NCBI GenBank assembly: GCA_031835245.2
Contig: JAVKOQ020000073.1
Coordinates: 62,001 to 126,000 of the forward strand
From: Balamuthia mandrillaris
Lineage: Eukaryota
Direction of reading: 5' to 3'
DNA: 64,000 bases
A program made the position numbers and the translations under genes. The notes under the pieces were generated by a model. It did not search any database and was not told the origin of the DNA. It was given only the letters and a program-made list of their open reading frames with translations. Below are positions 43,210 to 64,000 of the stretch, piece by piece; position 1 is the first letter of the stretch; each line of letters starts with the position of its first letter.

Positions 43210-44517
43210 TTAGTCAGAGGGAACAGGCGCCGAGTCCCACGGGCAACCGTGATCCCTTGCCCACTGCAAAACCTCCAGGTGACCATGCCTCGATGCTCGT
43301 ATGAAGCACTGCTCGTTCCAAGGACATCCATGCTCCCTGGCCCATCGCAACACCTCCAAATGCCCGTTCTCTGCCGCGCATGCGCAAGTGGCTTCATTCC
43401 AAGGGCACCCATGCTCTCTAGCCCATCGCAACACCGCCAAATGTCCGTTGGTGGCTGCAGCGCTGCAAATGCTTTCGTCCCATTCGCAGCCTTGCTCTCT
43501 GGCCCATTGCAGCACCTGCAAGTCGCCATGCTTGGCTGCATAATAGCAGGTCAACTCGTTCCAAGGACAACCATTCACTCTGGCCCATTGTAACACCTCC
43601 AAAGAAGAAGCGCTGCCTTTCTTCTCGAAAGCAGCGGCCGCAGCCAGAGCGCAAGTGGCTTCATTCCAAGGGCACCCATTCCCTCTGGCCCACCGCAGCA
43701 CCTCTAAATGTCCGTTATGAGCGGCGCTGCTGCAGGTTCGTTCGTCCCAAGGACAACCGTTCGCTCTGGCCCACCGCAAAACTTCCAGATGACCTCCTTC
43801 CGAGGCCTCGCTGCAGGTCTCCTCGTTCCAAGGGCAGCCCTTCTCTCGGACCCATTGCAGCACTGTCAGGTGACCCCAACGAGCTGCATTGCTGCAGGTG
43901 CGCTCATCCCAAGGGCAGCCTTGCTCCCTTGCCCATTGCAACACTTCTAGGTGTCCGTTCTTGGCTGCTTGAGCACAGGTCAACTCGTTCCAATCACAAC
44001 CTTGCTCTCTGGCCCATTGGAGTACTGCCAAATGGCCGTACATGGCAGCAAAACAGCAGGTTGCCTCGTTCCAAGGACAACCTTGCTCATGAGCCCATTG
44101 CAGGACCTTCAGATGGCCGCCAGCCGCTGCTTTGGCACAGGTCAACCAGTTCCAGGGGCAGCCTTGTTCTCTGGCCCACTGCAGCATTTCCAGGTGTCCG
44201 TTCTGGGCTGCCCAAATGGAAGTCCAAATGTCCCAAGCGCAGCCTTGCTCTCGAGCCCACTTGAGTGCCTCCAGGCTGCCGCTCTTGGCCGCGAGGCGGC
44301 AGGTCCTACTGTCAAGAGGGAAACCTTCATCACGATGAGCCCATTTGAGAAGGGCCAAGGAGCCGCACGCCGTAGCGAGGCTCAACCTCCGACGAAAACG
44401 CTTCGGACAACAGGAGTACCACCGGCGGCAGGTTCTGGCTGCCACCGGCTTCATCCCGTCGGGCAACATGCTGAAGACATGATACAGCAGTTCCATGGGC
44501 AGATCCTTTTCTTCCAT
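43210..44517 (-). CDS. F-box-like plus 25-aa ankyrin-like repeat protein of the GCPW type
   Basis: Intronless. N-terminal DLPMELLYHVFSML...TCRRW, then about 15 repeats of TCxxAAxxGHLEVLxWARxxGCPWxE. Confidence 0.9.
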   Translation of the reverse strand: MEEKDLPMELLYHVFSMLPDGMKPVAARTCRRWYSCCPKRFRRRLSLATACGSLALLKWAHRDEGFPLDSRTCRLAAKSGSLEALKWAREQGCAWDIWTSIWAAQNGHLEMLQWAREQGCPWNWLTCAKAAAGGHLKVLQWAHEQGCPWNEATCCFAAMYGHLAVLQWAREQGCDWNELTCAQAAKNGHLEVLQWAREQGCPWDERTCSNAARWGHLTVLQWVREKGCPWNEETCSEASEGGHLEVLRWARANGCPWDERTCSSAAHNGHLEVLRWARGNGCPWNEATCALAAAAAFEKKGSASSLEVLQWARVNGCPWNELTCYYAAKHGDLQVLQWAREQGCEWDESICSAAATNGHLAVLRWAREHGCPWNEATCACAAENGHLEVLRWAREHGCPWNEQCFIRASRHGHLEVLQWARDHGCPWDSAPVPSD

Positions 44518-44716
44518 TTGGTTTGGGTGTTCTTTCTTTTGCTTCGCTTTTAGGTGGCTTAATTAAATGTCGACTGTTCACAGCGCATGGGAAACGTCTG
44601 AATTATGTCCAAATAAATTAGCAAAGTAGCTCATAAAGAAGCAGAGAGAAGAGGAATACAAACAAGAAAGAGCGTGCTGCCATCTCTCTGCTCCTTGGCG
44701 GAAGCATGGTTCAACA

Positions 44717-56285: not shown

Positions 56286-56694
56286 TTTTTGCTTTTTCTT
56301 CTTTCTTTTCGTTATGTTGGTTTTTTCAGCCAATAGAAAATCAAAAATAAGTTGTCGACATAAATTTTACACCAAAAGAGAAGACGTTGTCGACGTTTAA
56401 TTATCCAACGGAAAATCAATTGTTCAGGATGATGTCAGCTTCTGGAACCCAATAAGAAATCAAAAATATGTCGACAATATATTATGGCAACTTCCGAAAT
56501 TGACCATTGAGGAAAGAAGAAAGAACGCAGACAGGTTGTTGTTGGCGATTTTGTTTTGTTTTTTTGTTCGGCAAAAGGGAGAAAAAAAATAAATTTGACA
56601 ACAAAGAAAGCGCGTTAGGTTTTTGGTGTTCTTTGTCTTTTTTTTGTTTTTCTTTTTTTTTTTGCTCTTCCCAAAAAAAAAAAAAAACACTCCA

Positions 56695-58129
56695 ATGGCA
56701 GGAGAAACTTTCGACTTTGGCATTCCAGCCGGAGAAAGCTTAGACGATGCGCCCAGAAACCACAAAAAACGGAAGAGGAGGTGCAGCTGGAACAAGCGGT
56801 CGCCATCCTCCGCCGGGCAGAGCGAAACGCTCGCGAAAAGATCGAGGTGCTGACCCAGAAGCAGCAGCAATGGAATGCCACTCAAACCCAGATCAACGCC
56901 AACCTTGAGGCCGCTCACCAAAAAGTACTTTTCATTTCTGTTCTTTTTCTTTGTGCTTTTTTTTCAATTTTTCATTTTTCATTTTTTTTTGTTTTATTTT
57001 TTTTATTTTTGGTTTTTTTTTATTTTTCTCTTTTTAACATTTCATTTGAACAAAAACAACAAAAGATAAGGCTGGATGTAGGCGGCAAACTCTTTGCCAC
57101 GAGCAAGTCCACTCTTCTCACCTTCGAGAACACGTTCTTCCACGCGATGCTCTCCTCCGGCAGATGGCTTCCCGATAACCACGCCCAGGAGGACCCCTCT
57201 TCGCCGCCATCACCGCCGCTTTACTTCATCGACCGCAACCCAAAGCTCTTCTCCTTCGTCCTCGACTTTCTGCGCAGCTATAACGATGACATTCAGCACC
57301 GTTACGATGAGGAGGCAGAGGCGCTGCTGCCATCCAAACAACCGCAGCTGCTCGCTCTGAGGAGAGAGGCTGATTTTTATGGGCTTCAACCGTTAGTGTC
57401 CAACTCATCAACCACAAGCTCCACAAACAACGCCAGCGAGGAAAGCAAAGACGGAAGCAAGGAGGAGAAGACCTTGCCACGAATCCTAGGTTGTTGCAGT
57501 TGGACGCGATGGAGCTCGGCCCGAACGTCGTGCTGAGCGGTGACCTGCGAACTGCAGTCAAGAGAGGAAACGCTCCTGGTCACGCGTCCATTCTGGCCAA
57601 ACAGGGCTTCGTTTCGGGCCTTCATTCTTGGTTAGTTGCCATTCATCGTCTCGGCGCTTCTTCTTTGCAGTCTTCTTCCTCTTCGTTTCCGTCTCCGTTC
57701 TCTTCTCCTTTTGCTTCTTCTACCTCTTTCCCTGCATCGCATTGGATTGCAGTTGGAGTTTGTCGCAAGGAACGATTGAGGAACCGAAGCAACAACTATG
57801 CTTCTGCTTTTGCTATCTCCAGCAAGAATCAACTCTGGAGAGCAGACAATGAACGAGAGGGACGACATAATGCAGGGAACGATTGGATCGATGGCGATGT
57901 GCTTCGGGTGACCCTCTCGTTGGAGCAGAGGCTGAACTTTGTGCGCATTGAGAACCTTCGGACAGGGCGTTCCGAACGAATCGAATGGAGAGATGACAAT
58001 GATGAAGAGGAAAGGCTTTATTATCCCTATTTCAACCTGTATAACGTGGCCAGTTCCTTCTCCGTGCTGGACTATCGCTTCTACGGGGAGGATAACAGCA
58101 ACAAAGAGATCGATCATGAACTCCACTGA
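56695..58129 (+). CDS. KCTD-type BTB/POZ plus SPRY-like domain protein with two apparent frameshifts (possible pseudogene or assembly errors)
   Basis: IRLDVGGKLFATSKSTL, YFIDRNPKLFSFVLDFLR and EADFYGL (BTB), plus SPRY-like GFVSGLHSW, WIAVGV and WIDGDVLRVTL. The frame breaks near 56765 and 57397. Confidence 0.75.
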
Positions 58130-58336: not shown

Positions 58337-59812
58337 TCAAGTATTGGTTCGGCTGGCGCTAGTTTCGTTTGTTGCCAGCAAAGATTTCTTATTGTTTGAA
58401 CTTTGAAGAGCAGACAGAACAGCAGAGGCTATGCTTTGGGCCAGCTTGGGAGGTACCGCGTTGCCTATCTGATGGATGAAAACAACCTAACATAAGAAAA
58501 TGAATGAATGCTCCCAGAGGTTTCAGACTGTTGCCAATCATCCGTCTTCGCATTTACCTGTCTAAACTGGGAGGATTGAGCGCCCATGAAGCAGAAGGTC
58601 AAGGGAAAGGACTGCAACAGGGATGCTTCCGTGACAGAAAGCCTACGAATGAAGGAAGGGACGGTTTCATTCTCGGCAGGACATTCGTTTTTTAAAAGCC
58701 GTCGGTGAAGGTGTTCGAACCAAGATGGTCTCCCAGTCCGTAACGCTCTTTCGTCGAGGATAGGGGTTTTGTTGCCGCCCATGGAAGCTAGCAGCGTGTT
58801 GATGGGAGCGTGTATGTTGACCGGCCTACCTCCACCATTGAAAATGTGGCCAGAATAGGGAGACTTTCGCAAGTCTGGCTGCTTGGCCAAGGTTATTTTT
58901 GCTTTGCATGGGCCGAGGTTGGGTGAGGAGCCTGGAGGAGGAAGGTCCTTCAGCACGTCATAAACAGTTGGGGTGGAGGGGTCGAGAGGAGGGACCTCGG
59001 TGATGGGGTTCAGGTGGGAGGCCGTCCCGATGAAAAAGGCCCTCTCTCGAGATTGGGCAACACCATAATGGCGTGCGTTGAGGAGAAGAACGGTTACGGT
59101 GTAGCCTAGCCCTTCGAACTTGTGCAACAAAGCACTGCGAAGCTCATGCCAGCGTTTGTGAGTTGCCAGGGCCGTCACGTTCTCTTTTTTTTTAAAGTTC
59201 AGCACGTAGTATAAAAACGCATAAAGTAACACATCAAAGTAACGAAAGCAGTACCCATGACGAAAACGGGTGGTCTAAGCTGCTCTACCAAACGAGCAAA
59301 CTGCCACACCAAAAGGTTTCGCTCGTCGCGAGCATCCATGTTGCCGCCTATGGAAAACCCTTGGCTGCGTGGAGGTATGAGAGCTTCAATACCCAAGGAG
59401 CAAGGTCGAGTACGTACCAAGGCGGACCTCCTATCAGAACACTGCACCGTGCGGGCAGCTCTCCGCTACGAAGAGACGCGACATCGCGCCGAACGGCGTA
59501 CCCGCCTATGTTTTTACGATAGGTTTCAACAGCGTCTTTGTCGTTGTCGACGGCATAGACAATGTTGAAGCCAGCATTCACAAAGCCAAGGTCCATGCCT
59601 CCCGCTCCGCAAAACAAACTTACCACTGTGAGCTGTGTGACAAACCAGTTAGCAACGACATCGGAAAAAAGCAAGGAGAGGAGAGGGAAAGAGGCTACCT
59701 GCTCATCCTGCATGATGGTGTCCCTCTTTGTGAGTTTAGACGGAAGAAAAGGTTCATCGGTTTGTTTTCTCTTGGATGCAGGGCGAAAGAACGAAGTCAC
59801 GGTGGTTTGCAT
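58337..59812 (-). CDS. DNA (cytosine-5) methyltransferase of prokaryotic R-M type with N-terminal PIP box; exons 59812-59699, 59632-59418, 59364-59255, 59183-58558, 58468-58337 (398 aa)
   Basis: Motif I SLFCGAGGMDLG, IV GGPPCQGFS, VI VFVMENV, VIII YGVAQSRERAFFIG, IX RRLSVTEASLLQSFP and X RQIGNAVPP are all in frame after splicing. Confidence 0.93.
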
Positions 59813-60029
59813 TATCTTAACCTCTTTACCTCAAAACTCCTGGGGTGCCGCTTCTTTTGGATGTCGGCGGATAACGATGGATGTCGGCGGCAAAACGAAA
59901 CTGGTAACAGCAACGAAGCGCCCTATTATGATAACGCGACTGAGGAAAGAAGAACTTTACTTCTTTTCATCGTTTTGGTTTTCTCTCTTTTGCCGTTGTT
60001 GAATATACAAAGATCTTTCTTTATTACTT

Positions 60030-61696: not shown

Positions 61697-62551
61697 CTAG
61701 AGCCGTTTTCTCTTTTTGGGTGGTTCCGTTGGCGTATCTTCTGTCTCTGCTCTTCTTGCTCCCTCTTCATCTTCTCCCTGTCCTTGTTCTTCTTCTTCTT
61801 CTTCTTCGTCCGAAGAGCCGCAAGTGGAATTACCTCGATTGATGCTGCAGCTCAAGCAGATGTTCCCTTCACATCGTGAGCACTCATTCCACTCGTCCGC
61901 ATGGCAGTGCATCGCTGCGTCGCAGACCACACAATAAGGCACACAGCGCTTGCAAAAAGGCTCATCACAATATTCGCAATACAGCGTACAGTCGTTCGAC
62001 GTGCACACATCCTTTCTGCAAAAGGCGCAACGCGTGCGGTCCCATTTCTTCTCCCCCACTTCCAACACTTCGCCTTTGCCGCAATGCACACAACAAAACA
62101 CTTTGGCTTTTACAAAGCGTTCCATCAAGTCCTTCTTCTTACCAGTCTTGTCCTCCTTGCCATGTGAGTCAGCTAAAAGTTGTTCCCACTCCTTCGGTGC
62201 TTCTCGTTGCCATAAAGCCTTCCACATGCGGTCAGAGCTGCACAGGTGGTACAGGTCGCGGCAGACGAGCAACAGTCGGCCGACGGTGAGGACATCGGCG
62301 TGGTGTGACAACATTCCAAACCACACTTCGGGAGGAAGTTCAAGGGACCACCCGCCGAGGGATTGTTGGATGGGAATGCGTTGCGCCCGCTCAAGGGCTT
62401 TTGCTTCTTTTCTTAGTCTCGGCAGCTCCGTTTCTGAGCAGGAAATGCAGTAGCCTTTGCAAACTGGATTGGAATAGGCCCCGCAACCTTCGGACTTGCA
62501 GAAGATGTCAGGATCTTCATAGTCGGGGTCGTTGGTGTGGTGGTCAGACAT
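61697..62551 (-). CDS. A20-like zinc finger, F-box and CxxC-repeat protein (tandem paralog 1)
   Basis: CKSEGCGAYSNPVCKGYCISC, F-box LELPPEVWFGML...LLLVCRDLYHLCSSDRMWK, a Cys-rich region and C-terminal PPKKRKRL. Confidence 0.85.
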   Translation of the reverse strand: MSDHHTNDPDYEDPDIFCKSEGCGAYSNPVCKGYCISCSETELPRLRKEAKALERAQRIPIQQSLGGWSLELPPEVWFGMLSHHADVLTVGRLLLVCRDLYHLCSSDRMWKALWQREAPKEWEQLLADSHGKEDKTGKKKDLMERFVKAKVFCCVHCGKGEVLEVGEKKWDRTRCAFCRKDVCTSNDCTLYCEYCDEPFCKRCVPYCVVCDAAMHCHADEWNECSRCEGNICLSCSINRGNSTCGSSDEEEEEEEQGQGEDEEGARRAETEDTPTEPPKKRKRL

Positions 62552-62794
62552 GCCGGAACTTTGGTTTTGTTTCTCCACGCACAAGTTTATCTTTATTAAT
62601 TGCCCGTTTCCTTTCCTGTTCCACTTGGACACTTGCTTCAGTGCGGAGTGGCTTGGGCTTACACTTGGACAGCAGCTTCTTAAACAAACTGCAAGCAGAA
62701 TTCGTTGGTGATGCTGAACAAGGAGGAAACGTTGGCGGAATGCTCACACGAGGTTATTTTGCTTTTTTTACTTTTACTTTACATTACAGCCACT

Positions 62795-63628
62795 TTAAAA
62801 TCGTTTTCTCTTGGTGGGACGTTCCTGCGCTTTGTCTTCTTCTGCTTCCTCCTCTTCCTCCCCCTCCTCCTCCCCCTCCTCTCTTTCTGCTTGTTCTTCT
62901 TCTCCTTCTTCTTCGTCTTCTTCATTGTCCTTTTCCTCTTCAGCAGAACATTCACCACAAGTAGAATTGCCGCTGGAATAGCATGTCATACAAATATCAG
63001 CCCCACATCCGGGACAGGAAGTCCAGTCGTCCGCATGGCAGTGCATGGCTTCCCCGCAGAGCTCGCAAGTGGTTCCACACTTCTCGCAAACGGCCTCACC
63101 GCAATAGTGGCAATTAGCCACGCAGCTGCCACACACTTCCTTTCGGCAGATGTCGCAGTGCAGCACGTCGCATTCCTTCTCCAGCTGTGGCAGCACCTTG
63201 CATTTGTCACAGCTGACGCAACGGAAGACTTTGGTTTTGACAAAGTGCTTCATCAAGTCCTTCTTCGTCCGGCGAAGTTCGTCCTCTCCACGCTTGATCA
63301 GTTTCTTCCACTCGTCAGGGGCCTCCCGTTGCCACATTGCCTTCCACATGTCGAAAGAGCTGCACAGGTGGTACAAGTCGCGGCAGACGAGCAACAGCCG
63401 CCCCACGGCAATGGGATGAGCATGGCCCGAAAGCATGTTGAACCACACCTCGGGTGGAAGCTCCAGGGACCAACCATTGGGAGATTGTTGGATGGTAACG
63501 CGTTGCGCCCGTTGGCGAGCTTTTCGTTCTTGCAGCTTGGGAAGTTGCTTCTTGGCGCAGGAAGAGCAGTAGCCTTTGCAGCCTGGGTTCGGATAGAAAT
63601 AACAGCCTTGGGTCTTACAGTGCGCCAT
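62795..63628 (-). CDS. A20-like zinc finger, F-box and CxxC-repeat protein (tandem paralog 2)
   Basis: CKTQGCYFYPNPGCKGYCSSC, a near-identical F-box, a Cys-rich region and C-terminal PTKRKRF. Confidence 0.85.
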   Translation of the reverse strand: MAHCKTQGCYFYPNPGCKGYCSSCAKKQLPKLQERKARQRAQRVTIQQSPNGWSLELPPEVWFNMLSGHAHPIAVGRLLLVCRDLYHLCSSFDMWKAMWQREAPDEWKKLIKRGEDELRRTKKDLMKHFVKTKVFRCVSCDKCKVLPQLEKECDVLHCDICRKEVCGSCVANCHYCGEAVCEKCGTTCELCGEAMHCHADDWTSCPGCGADICMTCYSSGNSTCGECSAEEEKDNEEDEEEGEEEQAEREEGEEEGEEEEEAEEDKAQERPTKRKRF

Positions 63629-64000
63629 GAACAACAGGGTGCCGGTTCCTCCTTGTCTTGCAATAATAGGCTCCTAAAAAATTTTGCAACTTTCTTTAAT
63701 TTTTTGATTGGAAATTTGCAAAATTTTTCCTCGAAATAAATAAAATGCTAAGAAAAAATTTAGAATCAATTCTTTTTTTGTTCTCTATTGGTTTTATTGT
63801 TGTTGTGTTTAGACATTGAAATCCCAAATGCAAAGCTCTTGAAAACCGGCAATCTGCAACAACGGGAAGAAGTTGATGAGGAGAACCACACAGAGACAGA
63901 GAGATACCGAGAGTGAGAAAACGAGAGAAGAGAGAGAGAGTACAGAGAGTACAGAGAGATAGCGCACGAGAGAGTGTCGATAAATTGTGAGAGAGAGAGA

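What the first reader, a model, noticed from the sequence alone, without database searches (positions are those of the whole stretch)
58337..59812. Domesticated prokaryote-type C5 DNA methyltransferase with a PCNA PIP box: candidate convergent replication-coupled methylase
Seen: a compact 398-aa C5-MTase with intact motifs I, IV (PCQ), VI (ENV), VIII, IX and X. It has a short R-M-style target recognition region (AKQPDLRKSPYSGHIFNGGGRPVNIHAPINTLLASMGGNKTPILDE) and none of the BAH/RFTS/PWWP/SNF2 domains of DNMT1/3/5. It has four spliceosomal introns, two of which split codons of catalytic residues (Cys TG|C, Glu G|AG), so it is a true eukaryotic gene rather than bacterial contamination. A separate first exon adds MQTTVTSFFRPASKRKQ. 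Established: Q-x-x-[ILMV]-x-x-[FY]-[FY] is the canonical PIP box, and mammalian DNMT1 binds PCNA through a similar QTTITSHF peptide. Inference: a horizontally acquired bacterial or viral MTase gained a PIP box and NLS and may methylate a specific motif at replication forks, as an independent maintenance-like methylation system or a self-mark against giant viruses and endosymbionts.
Basis: partly seen in the sequence, partly recalled or inferred. Interest (0 to 1): 0.88.

Follow-up and report, generated by a model that had tools for sequence, protein, structure and literature searches.

The report
Amoeba-domesticated bacterial methylase with clamp tag
An amoeba gene with four predicted introns encodes a bacterial restriction-system-type DNA methyltransferase, also found in Acanthamoeba and two pandoraviruses, that starts with a short peptide predicted to dock on the replication clamp PCNA, so it would likely mark a six-base DNA site behind the replication fork, although published data argue against genome-wide marking in Acanthamoeba.

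Summary
The gene model is right: five exons give a 398-aa protein identical to NCBI's Balamuthia mandrillaris record. It scores far below its bacterial kin against solved DNMT1 and DNMT2 and is a solitary member of the bacterial SacI/EcoT38I-type methyltransferase family; family loci avoid GRGCYC hexamers. Its closest relatives are an Acanthamoeba castellanii ortholog (69%) and two Pandoravirus proteins, which form one clade (100/97) nested among bacterial-type enzymes; the direction of transfer is unresolved. The N-terminal PIP box is canonical in Balamuthia, degenerate in Acanthamoeba (FF replaced by LL) and absent from the viruses. New here: bacterial relatives often end in a beta-clamp-like motif (28 of 232, shuffles 1.7), and a separate lineage gained its own N-terminal PIP box, which suggests a clamp-motif swap. 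Against a 'maintenance system': Acanthamoeba has DNMT1/DNMT3, and its published non-CpG methylation is below 0.2-0.3%, whereas full GRGCYC marking predicts about 1.2%. PCNA binding, activity and splicing are untested. The scan noted clamp tags on methyltransferases before, in viruses and archaea.

The parts
59699..59812 (-). Exon 1 (residues 1-38): start codon, PIP-like box, basic cluster, disordered linker; possible second start at Met34
   Evidence: (pLDDT < 50 over most of residues 1-35)
59786..59809 (-). PIP-box pattern, residues 2-9 (QTTVTSFF); the Acanthamoeba ortholog has QTTLTALL at the aligned place
59765..59785 (-). Basic cluster, residues 10-16 (RPASKRK), NLS-like (inferred); basic clusters also occur in the Acanthamoeba and Pandoravirus extensions
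59633..59698 (-). Intron 1, 66 nt, phase 0, in frame and stop-free, with a CTAAC branch-like motif
59418..59632 (-). Exon 2: motif I (SAM binding) to the first two bases of the catalytic Cys110 codon
59365..59417 (-). Intron 2, 53 nt, phase 2, splits Cys110
59255..59364 (-). Exon 3: rest of motif IV to the first base of the Glu147 codon
59184..59254 (-). Intron 3, 71 nt, phase 1, AAG acceptor, splits Glu147 of ENV
58558..59183 (-). Exon 4: motifs VI-VIII, target recognition domain, motif IX
58723..58917 (-). Target recognition region (about residues 236-300), SacI/EcoT38I-family type with the variant signature NGGGRP...LLASMGGN; 50 of 65 residues identical to Acanthamoeba
58469..58557 (-). Intron 4, 89 nt, phase 0, just before motif X
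58337..58468 (-). Exon 5: motif X, C-terminal tail without a clamp-like motif, stop codon

Best explanation
This is an intron-bearing amoebal copy of a bacterial SacI/EcoT38I-type C5 DNA methyltransferase, with no partner nuclease in the window, that is predicted to enter the nucleus, likely docks on PCNA through its N-terminal PIP-like box, and would methylate a GRGCYC-related hexamer on newly replicated DNA, probably only conditionally or at a narrowed site rather than genome-wide. Shown: gene structure, intact catalytic motifs, family identity, the Acanthamoeba ortholog, the clade with Pandoravirus, clamp-like tails in bacterial kin. Inferred: the bacterial donor was already clamp-coupled through a C-terminal beta-clamp motif, which was lost and replaced by an N-terminal PIP box plus NLS after transfer into the amoeba/pandoravirus gene pool. 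Least certain: the purpose, most likely a protective orphan mark against site-specific nucleases of ingested bacteria, endosymbionts or viruses. Step odds: real gene 0.97; bacterial family origin 0.95; active DNA C5 methyltransferase 0.75; Balamuthia box binds PCNA 0.65; GRGCYC subset as target 0.6.
For: The model is identical to the NCBI protein. Catalytic and TRD residues are invariant across a 90-sequence alignment. The AlphaFold model has mean pLDDT 91.6 and its best Foldseek match is M.HaeIII. In 104 of 133 fetched family loci the neighbour falls in one ORF cluster, and 5 of 5 members scanned are Pfam RE_SacI. An E. coli P2-prophage copy sits with a SacI-family nuclease and an HTH gene. 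GAGCCC/GGGCTC is the most depleted of 2016 non-palindromic hexamer classes in 125 family loci (O/E 0.33; 0.58 in 195 control loci). Amoebae plus Pandoravirus: 99/96 and 100/97 in two models. Ortholog identity is 234 of 334 in the core and 50 of 65 in the TRD; the box keeps 4 of 8 against 7 of 29 in the rest of the extension. The Acanthamoeba protein has no Met between the box and motif I, so a product with motif I must carry the box. A clamp-like tail pattern occurs in 28 of 232 non-redundant relatives against 1.7 +/- 1.3 in shuffles, and in 1 of 62 partner-nuclease tails. Canonical PIP boxes occur in 2 of 124 N-terminal extensions (P0001, P0321), with shuffle P(>=2) = 0.0005; a single origin of the two is rejected (AU p = 0.009).
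Against: Sarre et al. 2025 (PMC12344493, section 6): non-CpG methylation in A. castellanii Neff is below the 0.2-0.3% non-conversion rate. Full GRGCYC marking predicts about 1.2% mCC and mCT at a recalled 58% GC, or 0.37% and 0.60% from this window's own counts. The Acanthamoeba box has LL instead of FF; both Pandoravirus copies and most bacterial members (204 of 232 by the strict pattern) have no clamp motif, so clamp docking is dispensable for the family. GRGCYC as a class is not depleted in the window (42 sites; GAGCCC O/E 0.87-1.13). The amoebal TRD signature differs from the bulk family and resembles distant enzymes, one of which sits beside a non-SacI nuclease, so the site may have shifted. 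Sarre et al. report one orphan DNMT in A. castellanii that is unexpressed and absent from strain C3; I could not exclude that it is this gene. The P0001 match counts as one of the two in the P(>=2) statistic, so it is not independent of how the finding was chosen, and the tail patterns were written after I had seen some tails. Only two amoeba genera were found.
Confidence: 0.45

Rival explanations
1. It is an active, domesticated site-specific methyltransferase, but the N-terminal extension works only as a nuclear localisation signal; the PIP match is incidental or a weak relic.
For: The Acanthamoeba box lacks both aromatics. Pandoravirus sisters keep basic clusters but no box. Basic clusters occur in 10 listed extensions and canonical PIP boxes in only 2.
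Against: The chance of the pattern in this extension is 0.25%. Q-T-T-aliphatic-T is kept in both amoebae while most of the linker diverged. Bacterial kin carry clamp-like tails and a second lineage gained a PIP box.
Confidence: 0.25
2. One reading: a second, genome-wide, replication-coupled maintenance methylation system or self-mark in these amoebae.
For: A palindromic target would be restored after replication; clamp tag and basic cluster are present; the gene is conserved at 69% in two genera. No Balamuthia methylome turned up in the paper searches.
Against: A. castellanii non-CpG methylation is below background, and its methylome is explained by DNMT1/DNMT3 at CpG. GRGCYC is not depleted in the window. 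No partner nuclease is in the window.
Confidence: 0.1
3. It is a virus-derived gene that is silent or nearly so in the host, possibly the Pithovirus-like orphan of Sarre et al., retained without current function.
For: The sister group is Pandoravirus. Virus-to-Acanthamoeba MTase transfers are published (PMC7253447 section 11). An unexpressed orphan DNMT is reported.
Against: The gene has four predicted introns, intact motifs and 77% TRD identity across genera, and it sits among ordinary host genes (Nup133-like, NTR2, BTB, isochorismatase). An uninterrupted 405-aa Acanthamoeba record (P0122) beside 217-aa records that begin downstream of the intron-3 position suggests a spliced transcript (inference). 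The closest viral kin found are Pandoravirus; the Pithovirus methylase in the fold search is 19% identical.
Confidence: 0.12
4. The enzyme acts mainly on foreign DNA in the nucleus (incoming or replicating viral DNA) or on a non-DNA substrate, which would explain the missing host signal.
For: Host non-CpG signal is absent, and the gene has been exchanged with pandoraviruses.
Against: There is no DNMT2 CFT motif and DNMT2 scores are low (26-39 bits against 159 for M.HaeIII). The AGCT anomaly of pandoraviruses does not fit a hexamer, and AGCT sites in P. neocaledonia were cut by AluI and PvuII (preprint 10.1101/712018).
Confidence: 0.08

Closest known systems
Type II R-M C5 methyltransferases of the SacI/EcoT38I family (RefSeq names the A. 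castellanii ortholog 'EcoT38I methyltransferase'; GAGCTC and GRGCYC specificities recalled)
   Same: Catalytic core and TRD are homologous (best matches 44-58% identity); bacterial members sit beside RE_SacI; family loci avoid GRGCYC hexamers.
   Different: Four predicted introns, no partner nuclease in the window, an N-terminal PIP/NLS extension, loss of the C-terminal clamp-like tail, and a variant TRD signature.
Pandoravirus kuranda WBR15047.1 and P. massiliensis UDO46898.1 C5 methyltransferases
   Same: Sister group (100/97); shared TRD signature and basic N-terminal clusters.
   Different: No PIP box, low-complexity insertions, long branch; their activity was not reported in the papers read.
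DNMT1 and its PCNA-binding PIP box (recalled)
   Same: A C5 methyltransferase with an N-terminal PIP box and basic cluster; works like it if binding is real.
   Different: No RFTS, CXXC or BAH domain; 77 bits to DNMT1 against 159 to M.HaeIII; hexamer-type TRD; no hemimethylation preference shown.
Lineage-specific 'orphan' DNMTs of eukaryotes (Sarre et al. 2025, PMC12344493) and the bacteria-derived 4mC methyltransferases of Adineta and Marchantia cited there
   Same: A bacterial or viral methyltransferase taken into a eukaryotic nuclear genome.
   Different: Conserved with orthology across two genera and targeted, if at all, by a short clamp motif rather than an added chromatin-reader domain (the Adineta chromodomain is recalled); PCNA is not mentioned in that paper's main text.

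Membership tests
C5 cytosine DNA methyltransferase (PF00145 / TIGR00675) | Motifs I, IV (PC), VI (ENV), VIII (QxRxR), IX, X in order; score above the curated cut-off | tested here: met
   TIGR00675 193 bits against a cut-off of 100.65; fold match to M.HaeIII
C5 cytosine DNA methyltransferase (PF00145 / TIGR00675) | Transfers methyl groups to DNA cytosine C5 | not testable with these tools
   needs an assay; the published Acanthamoeba methylome shows no non-CpG signal
SacI/EcoT38I-type Type II R-M methyltransferase | Homologous TRD and nesting within the family tree | tested here: met
SacI/EcoT38I-type Type II R-M system | Cognate SacI-family endonuclease gene beside it | tested here: not met
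   tblastn of 4 SacI-family proteins against the window gave no hit better than E 0.49; the rest of the genome was not available
SacI/EcoT38I-type Type II R-M methyltransferase | Recognises GRGCYC or GAGCTC | tested here: inconclusive
   avoidance in bacterial family loci; amoebal TRD is a variant; the window shows no class-wide depletion
DNMT1 | BAH and RFTS domains; large multidomain protein | tested here: not met
   398 aa, only PF00145; low score to solved DNMT1
DNMT2 | CFT motif in the TRD (recalled) and closest similarity to DNMT2 | tested here: not met
   no CFT; 26-39 bits to DNMT2 structures
DNMT3 / DNMT5 / DNMT6 | Grouping with these clades | tested here: inconclusive
   no such sequences were in my trees; the listed best hits are amoebal, pandoraviral or bacterial-type, and the protein nests among bacterial-type enzymes
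Canonical PIP-box protein | Q-x-x-aliphatic-x-x-aromatic-aromatic in a disordered region | tested here: met
   residues 2-9, pLDDT < 50
Canonical PIP-box protein | Motif conserved in orthologs | tested here: inconclusive
   Acanthamoeba keeps Q and the aliphatic position but has LL for FF; only one ortholog cluster was found
Canonical PIP-box protein | Binds PCNA | not tested
PIP degron (CRL4-Cdt2; consensus recalled) | TD at positions 5-6 and a basic residue four after the box | tested here: not met
   Balamuthia has TS and Ser at +4; Acanthamoeba has Lys at +4 but TA and no aromatics
Giant-virus endogenous element gene | Intronless gene among viral genes | tested here: not met
   four predicted introns; host-type genes in the window; CpG O/E 0.87 against 0.78 for the window

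The most novel reading that the evidence does not exclude
Restriction-type DNA methyltransferases ride the sliding clamp in all domains and swap the docking peptide to match the host. This amoebal gene is the domesticated eukaryotic end-point: a PCNA-tethered hexamer methylase that gives Acanthamoeba and Balamuthia a hidden non-CpG mark, switched on in cysts or during infection, which pandoraviruses have exchanged with the host in an arms race.
Probability: 0.2. Interest if true: 0.85.

Novelty: new variant of a known kind. Interest (0 to 1): 0.58.

Why it matters
If true, a eukaryote has re-invented DNMT1-style PCNA coupling on an unrelated bacterial methylase by replacing a bacterial clamp motif with a PIP box. 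That would show how horizontally acquired methyltransferases become wired into eukaryotic replication with a few residues. It gives a sharp, cheap prediction (5mC at GRGCYC-type sites) that existing A. castellanii EM-seq and WGBS data can test, and it adds a C5 enzyme to the known amoeba-giant virus methyltransferase traffic. It also shows that the RefSeq A. castellanii model lacks the N-terminal 141 residues of the longer record, including the SAM-binding and catalytic motifs.

Tried and rejected
RNA-seq confirmation could not be obtained, and no whole genome is held, so splicing, expression, copy number and a nuclease elsewhere in the genome stay open. IMG/VR scans with P0001, P0150, P0321 and P0146, and a motif pattern, found no close viral relatives or genomic context; the origin of P0321 stays unknown. 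P0150 grouped with the amoeba/Pandoravirus clade in one tree but left it when more rows were added: treated as a long-branch artefact. The direction of transfer is not resolved: Pandoravirus sister to Acanthamoeba was not rejected (AU p = 0.067) and sister to Balamuthia was borderline (p = 0.045). The link to the pandoravirus AGCT anomaly was considered and rejected as an explanation (hexamer against tetramer; unprotected AGCT in P. neocaledonia). GGGCCC is absent from the window (0 against 4.8-5.5 expected), but it is not counted as evidence: it is one of many low hexamers, and GGGCCC is also the lowest in control bacterial loci. Assigning a site to each TRD variant by avoidance failed: GGGCCC and GAGCCC were low in all five groups with enough loci, and no fetched locus in that test had the amoebal variant. 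A search of 401 Actinomycetota genomes gave 2 matches and no site assignment. The primary EcoT38I paper is not held. Moon et al. 2017 (first third read) does not identify this gene in the part read.

Full report
Observation. The minus strand at 58337-59812 holds a five-exon gene. Joining exons 59812-59699, 59632-59418, 59364-59255, 59183-58558 and 58468-58337 gives 398 aa, identical to P0001, which the collection names a cytosine-specific methyltransferase of Balamuthia mandrillaris, KAL6066976.1. All C5 motifs are present; TIGR00675 scores 193 bits against a cut-off of 100.65. The AlphaFold model from a 90-row alignment has mean pLDDT 91.6, with most of residues 1-35 below 50, and its best solved match is M.HaeIII. 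Intron 1 is in frame and stop-free, so the link between exon 1 and the enzyme does not depend on splicing; Met34 is a possible second start. Splicing rests on sequence and on agreement with another prediction, not on reads. The window is ordinary host territory (Nup133-like, NTR2, BTB_2, isochorismatase and F-box genes).

Family. By sequence the protein scores 159 bits to M.HaeIII, 77 to DNMT1 and 26-39 to DNMT2 structures, and it lacks the DNMT2 CFT motif (recalled). The listed best hits of the searches are one Acanthamoeba cluster, two Pandoravirus proteins and bacterial-type enzymes of 340-400 aa with a shared TRD. Of 133 fetched loci that encode this family, 104 have a neighbour in one ORF cluster (near-duplicate loci included), and 5 of 5 scanned are Pfam RE_SacI. 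An E. coli copy lies in a prophage with a SacI-family nuclease and an HTH gene, which fits the title of the EcoT38I paper seen in a reference list. In 125 family loci GAGCCC/GGGCTC is the most depleted of 2016 non-palindromic hexamer classes (O/E 0.33, against 0.58 in 195 control loci); GAGCTC is 0.54 against 0.67; GGGCCC is 0.30 against 0.28 and so uninformative. This fits GRGCYC, a 5mC motif confirmed by digestion in Propionibacterium (PMC11649196, passages; I did not check that its enzyme is in this family). The amoebal and Pandoravirus TRDs carry a variant signature found in 7 of 377 family rows. A related variant in Sphingomonas sits beside a different Type II nuclease, so the site may have shifted. 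No SacI-type gene is in the window.

Ortholog and origin. The A. castellanii RefSeq model (P0002, 264 aa, named 'EcoT38I methyltransferase') is the C-terminal part of a 405-aa unnamed record, P0122. Two further cluster members are 217-aa ORFs that begin at the first Met downstream of the intron-3 position. I infer a spliced transcript for P0122 and a shared intron, without having seen that DNA. Balamuthia and Acanthamoeba share 234 of 334 core and 50 of 65 TRD residues. With P. kuranda and P. massiliensis they form a clade nested among bacterial-type proteins: 99/96 under LG+G4 with 50 rows, and 100/97 under a mixture model with 36 rows. Rows were chosen from a 377-row FastTree, near-duplicates were dropped, and long-branch rows were dropped; no DNMT sequences were in these trees. 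The direction between amoeba and virus is unresolved. Jeudy et al. (PMC7253447; passages and section 11) describe virus-to-Acanthamoeba transfers of other methyltransferases, and the main text does not mention P. massiliensis, GAGCTC or GRGCYC.

The clamp tag. Residues 2-9 match the PIP consensus, followed by a basic cluster; 0.25% of shuffles of the extension match. Acanthamoeba has QTTLTALL then basic residues, and no Met between it and motif I: the position is conserved but the box is non-canonical. The Pandoravirus proteins have basic clusters and no box. Two comparative results raise the odds of function. First, bacterial-type relatives often end in a peptide like the beta-clamp motif (consensus recalled): 28 of 232 non-redundant tails by a strict pattern, against 1.7 +/- 1.3 in shuffles (maximum 6) and 1 of 62 partner-nuclease tails; 96 of 232 by a broader pattern written after seeing the tails, against 14.8 in shuffles. 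The amoebal and viral proteins lack it. Second, an unnamed relative, P0321, has its own N-terminal basic cluster and canonical box. It groups with P0325, and a common clade with the amoebal genes is rejected (AU p = 0.009). Canonical boxes occur in 2 of 124 extensions. Binding was not tested.

Against. Sarre et al. 2025 (PMC12344493; abstract, sections 5, 6 and 12, passages, supplement part 1 and one table row; figures not readable) list for A. castellanii two DNMT1, one DNMT3, two DNMT2 and one orphan. They report 1.3% mCG and non-CpG methylation below the 0.2-0.3% non-conversion rate. Full methylation of the fourth base of GRGCYC (position recalled) would give about 1.2% mCC and mCT at a recalled 58% GC, 0.5% mCT for GAGCTC alone, and 0.7% mCC for GGGCCC alone; from this window's counts the figures are 0.37% and 0.60%. 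Genome-wide marking in growing Neff cells is therefore unlikely unless the site is narrowed and rare. Their orphan is Pithovirus-like, unexpressed and absent from strain C3; my trees point to Pandoravirus, but I cannot exclude that it is the same gene. A. castellanii is also reported to encode DNMT1, UHRF1, CDCA7 and HELLS (PMC10538959, passages), so it needs no substitute maintenance system. The pandoravirus AGCT anomaly (10.1101/712018, parts 1-3 of 4) is not explained by a hexamer enzyme.

Mechanism. Most likely: nuclear import through the basic cluster (inferred), docking on PCNA through the box (inferred, about 0.65 for Balamuthia), base flipping and C5 methylation by the intact core (inferred from family) at a GRGCYC-related site (about 0.6), on fresh DNA behind the fork, at low level or under particular conditions. 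The likeliest purpose is protection from site-specific nucleases, as for bacterial orphan methylases (recalled); this step has the least support. It works like DNMT1-PCNA coupling if binding is real, but it is not a DNMT1, and it is not a complete R-M system.

Novelty. Horizontally acquired orphan methyltransferases in eukaryotes are known. I found no paper that describes this gene, its PIP box, or clamp motifs on R-M methyltransferases in searches of an open-access library; subscription papers and bioRxiv supplements were not visible, and Blais et al. 2025 was not read. Earlier AI notes of this scan describe clamp tags on methyltransferases of giant viruses, archaeal viruses and Asgard archaea; I saw them after forming the clamp-swap reading, and they are not counted as support. 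What this case adds is a cellular, intron-bearing gene conserved across two eukaryotic genera. Verdict: new variant of a known kind, interest 0.58.

Noticed in passing
P0321 (unnamed, 414 aa, 50-kb contig): A family member outside the amoebal clade with its own N-terminal basic cluster and canonical PIP box; its nearest relative P0325 (65%) lacks the extension. Likely a giant virus or another eukaryote; origin not determined.
   Followed up: partly
C-termini of bacterial SacI-family methyltransferases (e.g. P0125, P0299, P0012, L053): Beta-clamp-like tails in 28 of 232 non-redundant members (shuffles 1.7), nearly absent from partner nucleases; not found in the papers searched.
   Followed up: partly
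P0147, P0151, P0303 (unnamed): Further family members with basic, NLS-like N-terminal extensions that branch apart from the amoebal clade; possible independent entries into eukaryotes or their viruses.
   Followed up: no
window 59858-59890 (- strand): A 13-bp direct repeat (CCGCCGACATCCA, period 20 bp) 45-78 bp upstream of the start codon; possible promoter element.
   Followed up: no
window 43210-44562 (-): An uninterrupted 450-aa frame with F-box and ankyrin repeats of the GCPW type, resembling the repeat proteins of pandoraviruses and amoebae (recalled).
   Followed up: no
window 61697-62743 and 62795-63673 (-): Tandem paralogs with an F-box-like domain, a Cys-rich region, an acidic tract and a C-terminal KRKR motif.
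   Followed up: no
window 56619-58129 (+): A BTB_2 (KCTD-like) gene lying tail to tail with the methyltransferase, about 200 bp between the stop codons.
   Followed up: no
whole window: GGGCCC is absent (0 against about 5 expected) and GATC is low (O/E 0.59); not significant after multiple testing for the hexamer, but worth checking genome-wide.
   Followed up: partly
P0002 (A. castellanii XP_004337360.1): The RefSeq model lacks the N-terminal 141 residues of P0122, including motifs I-IV and the PIP-like peptide.
   Followed up: yes
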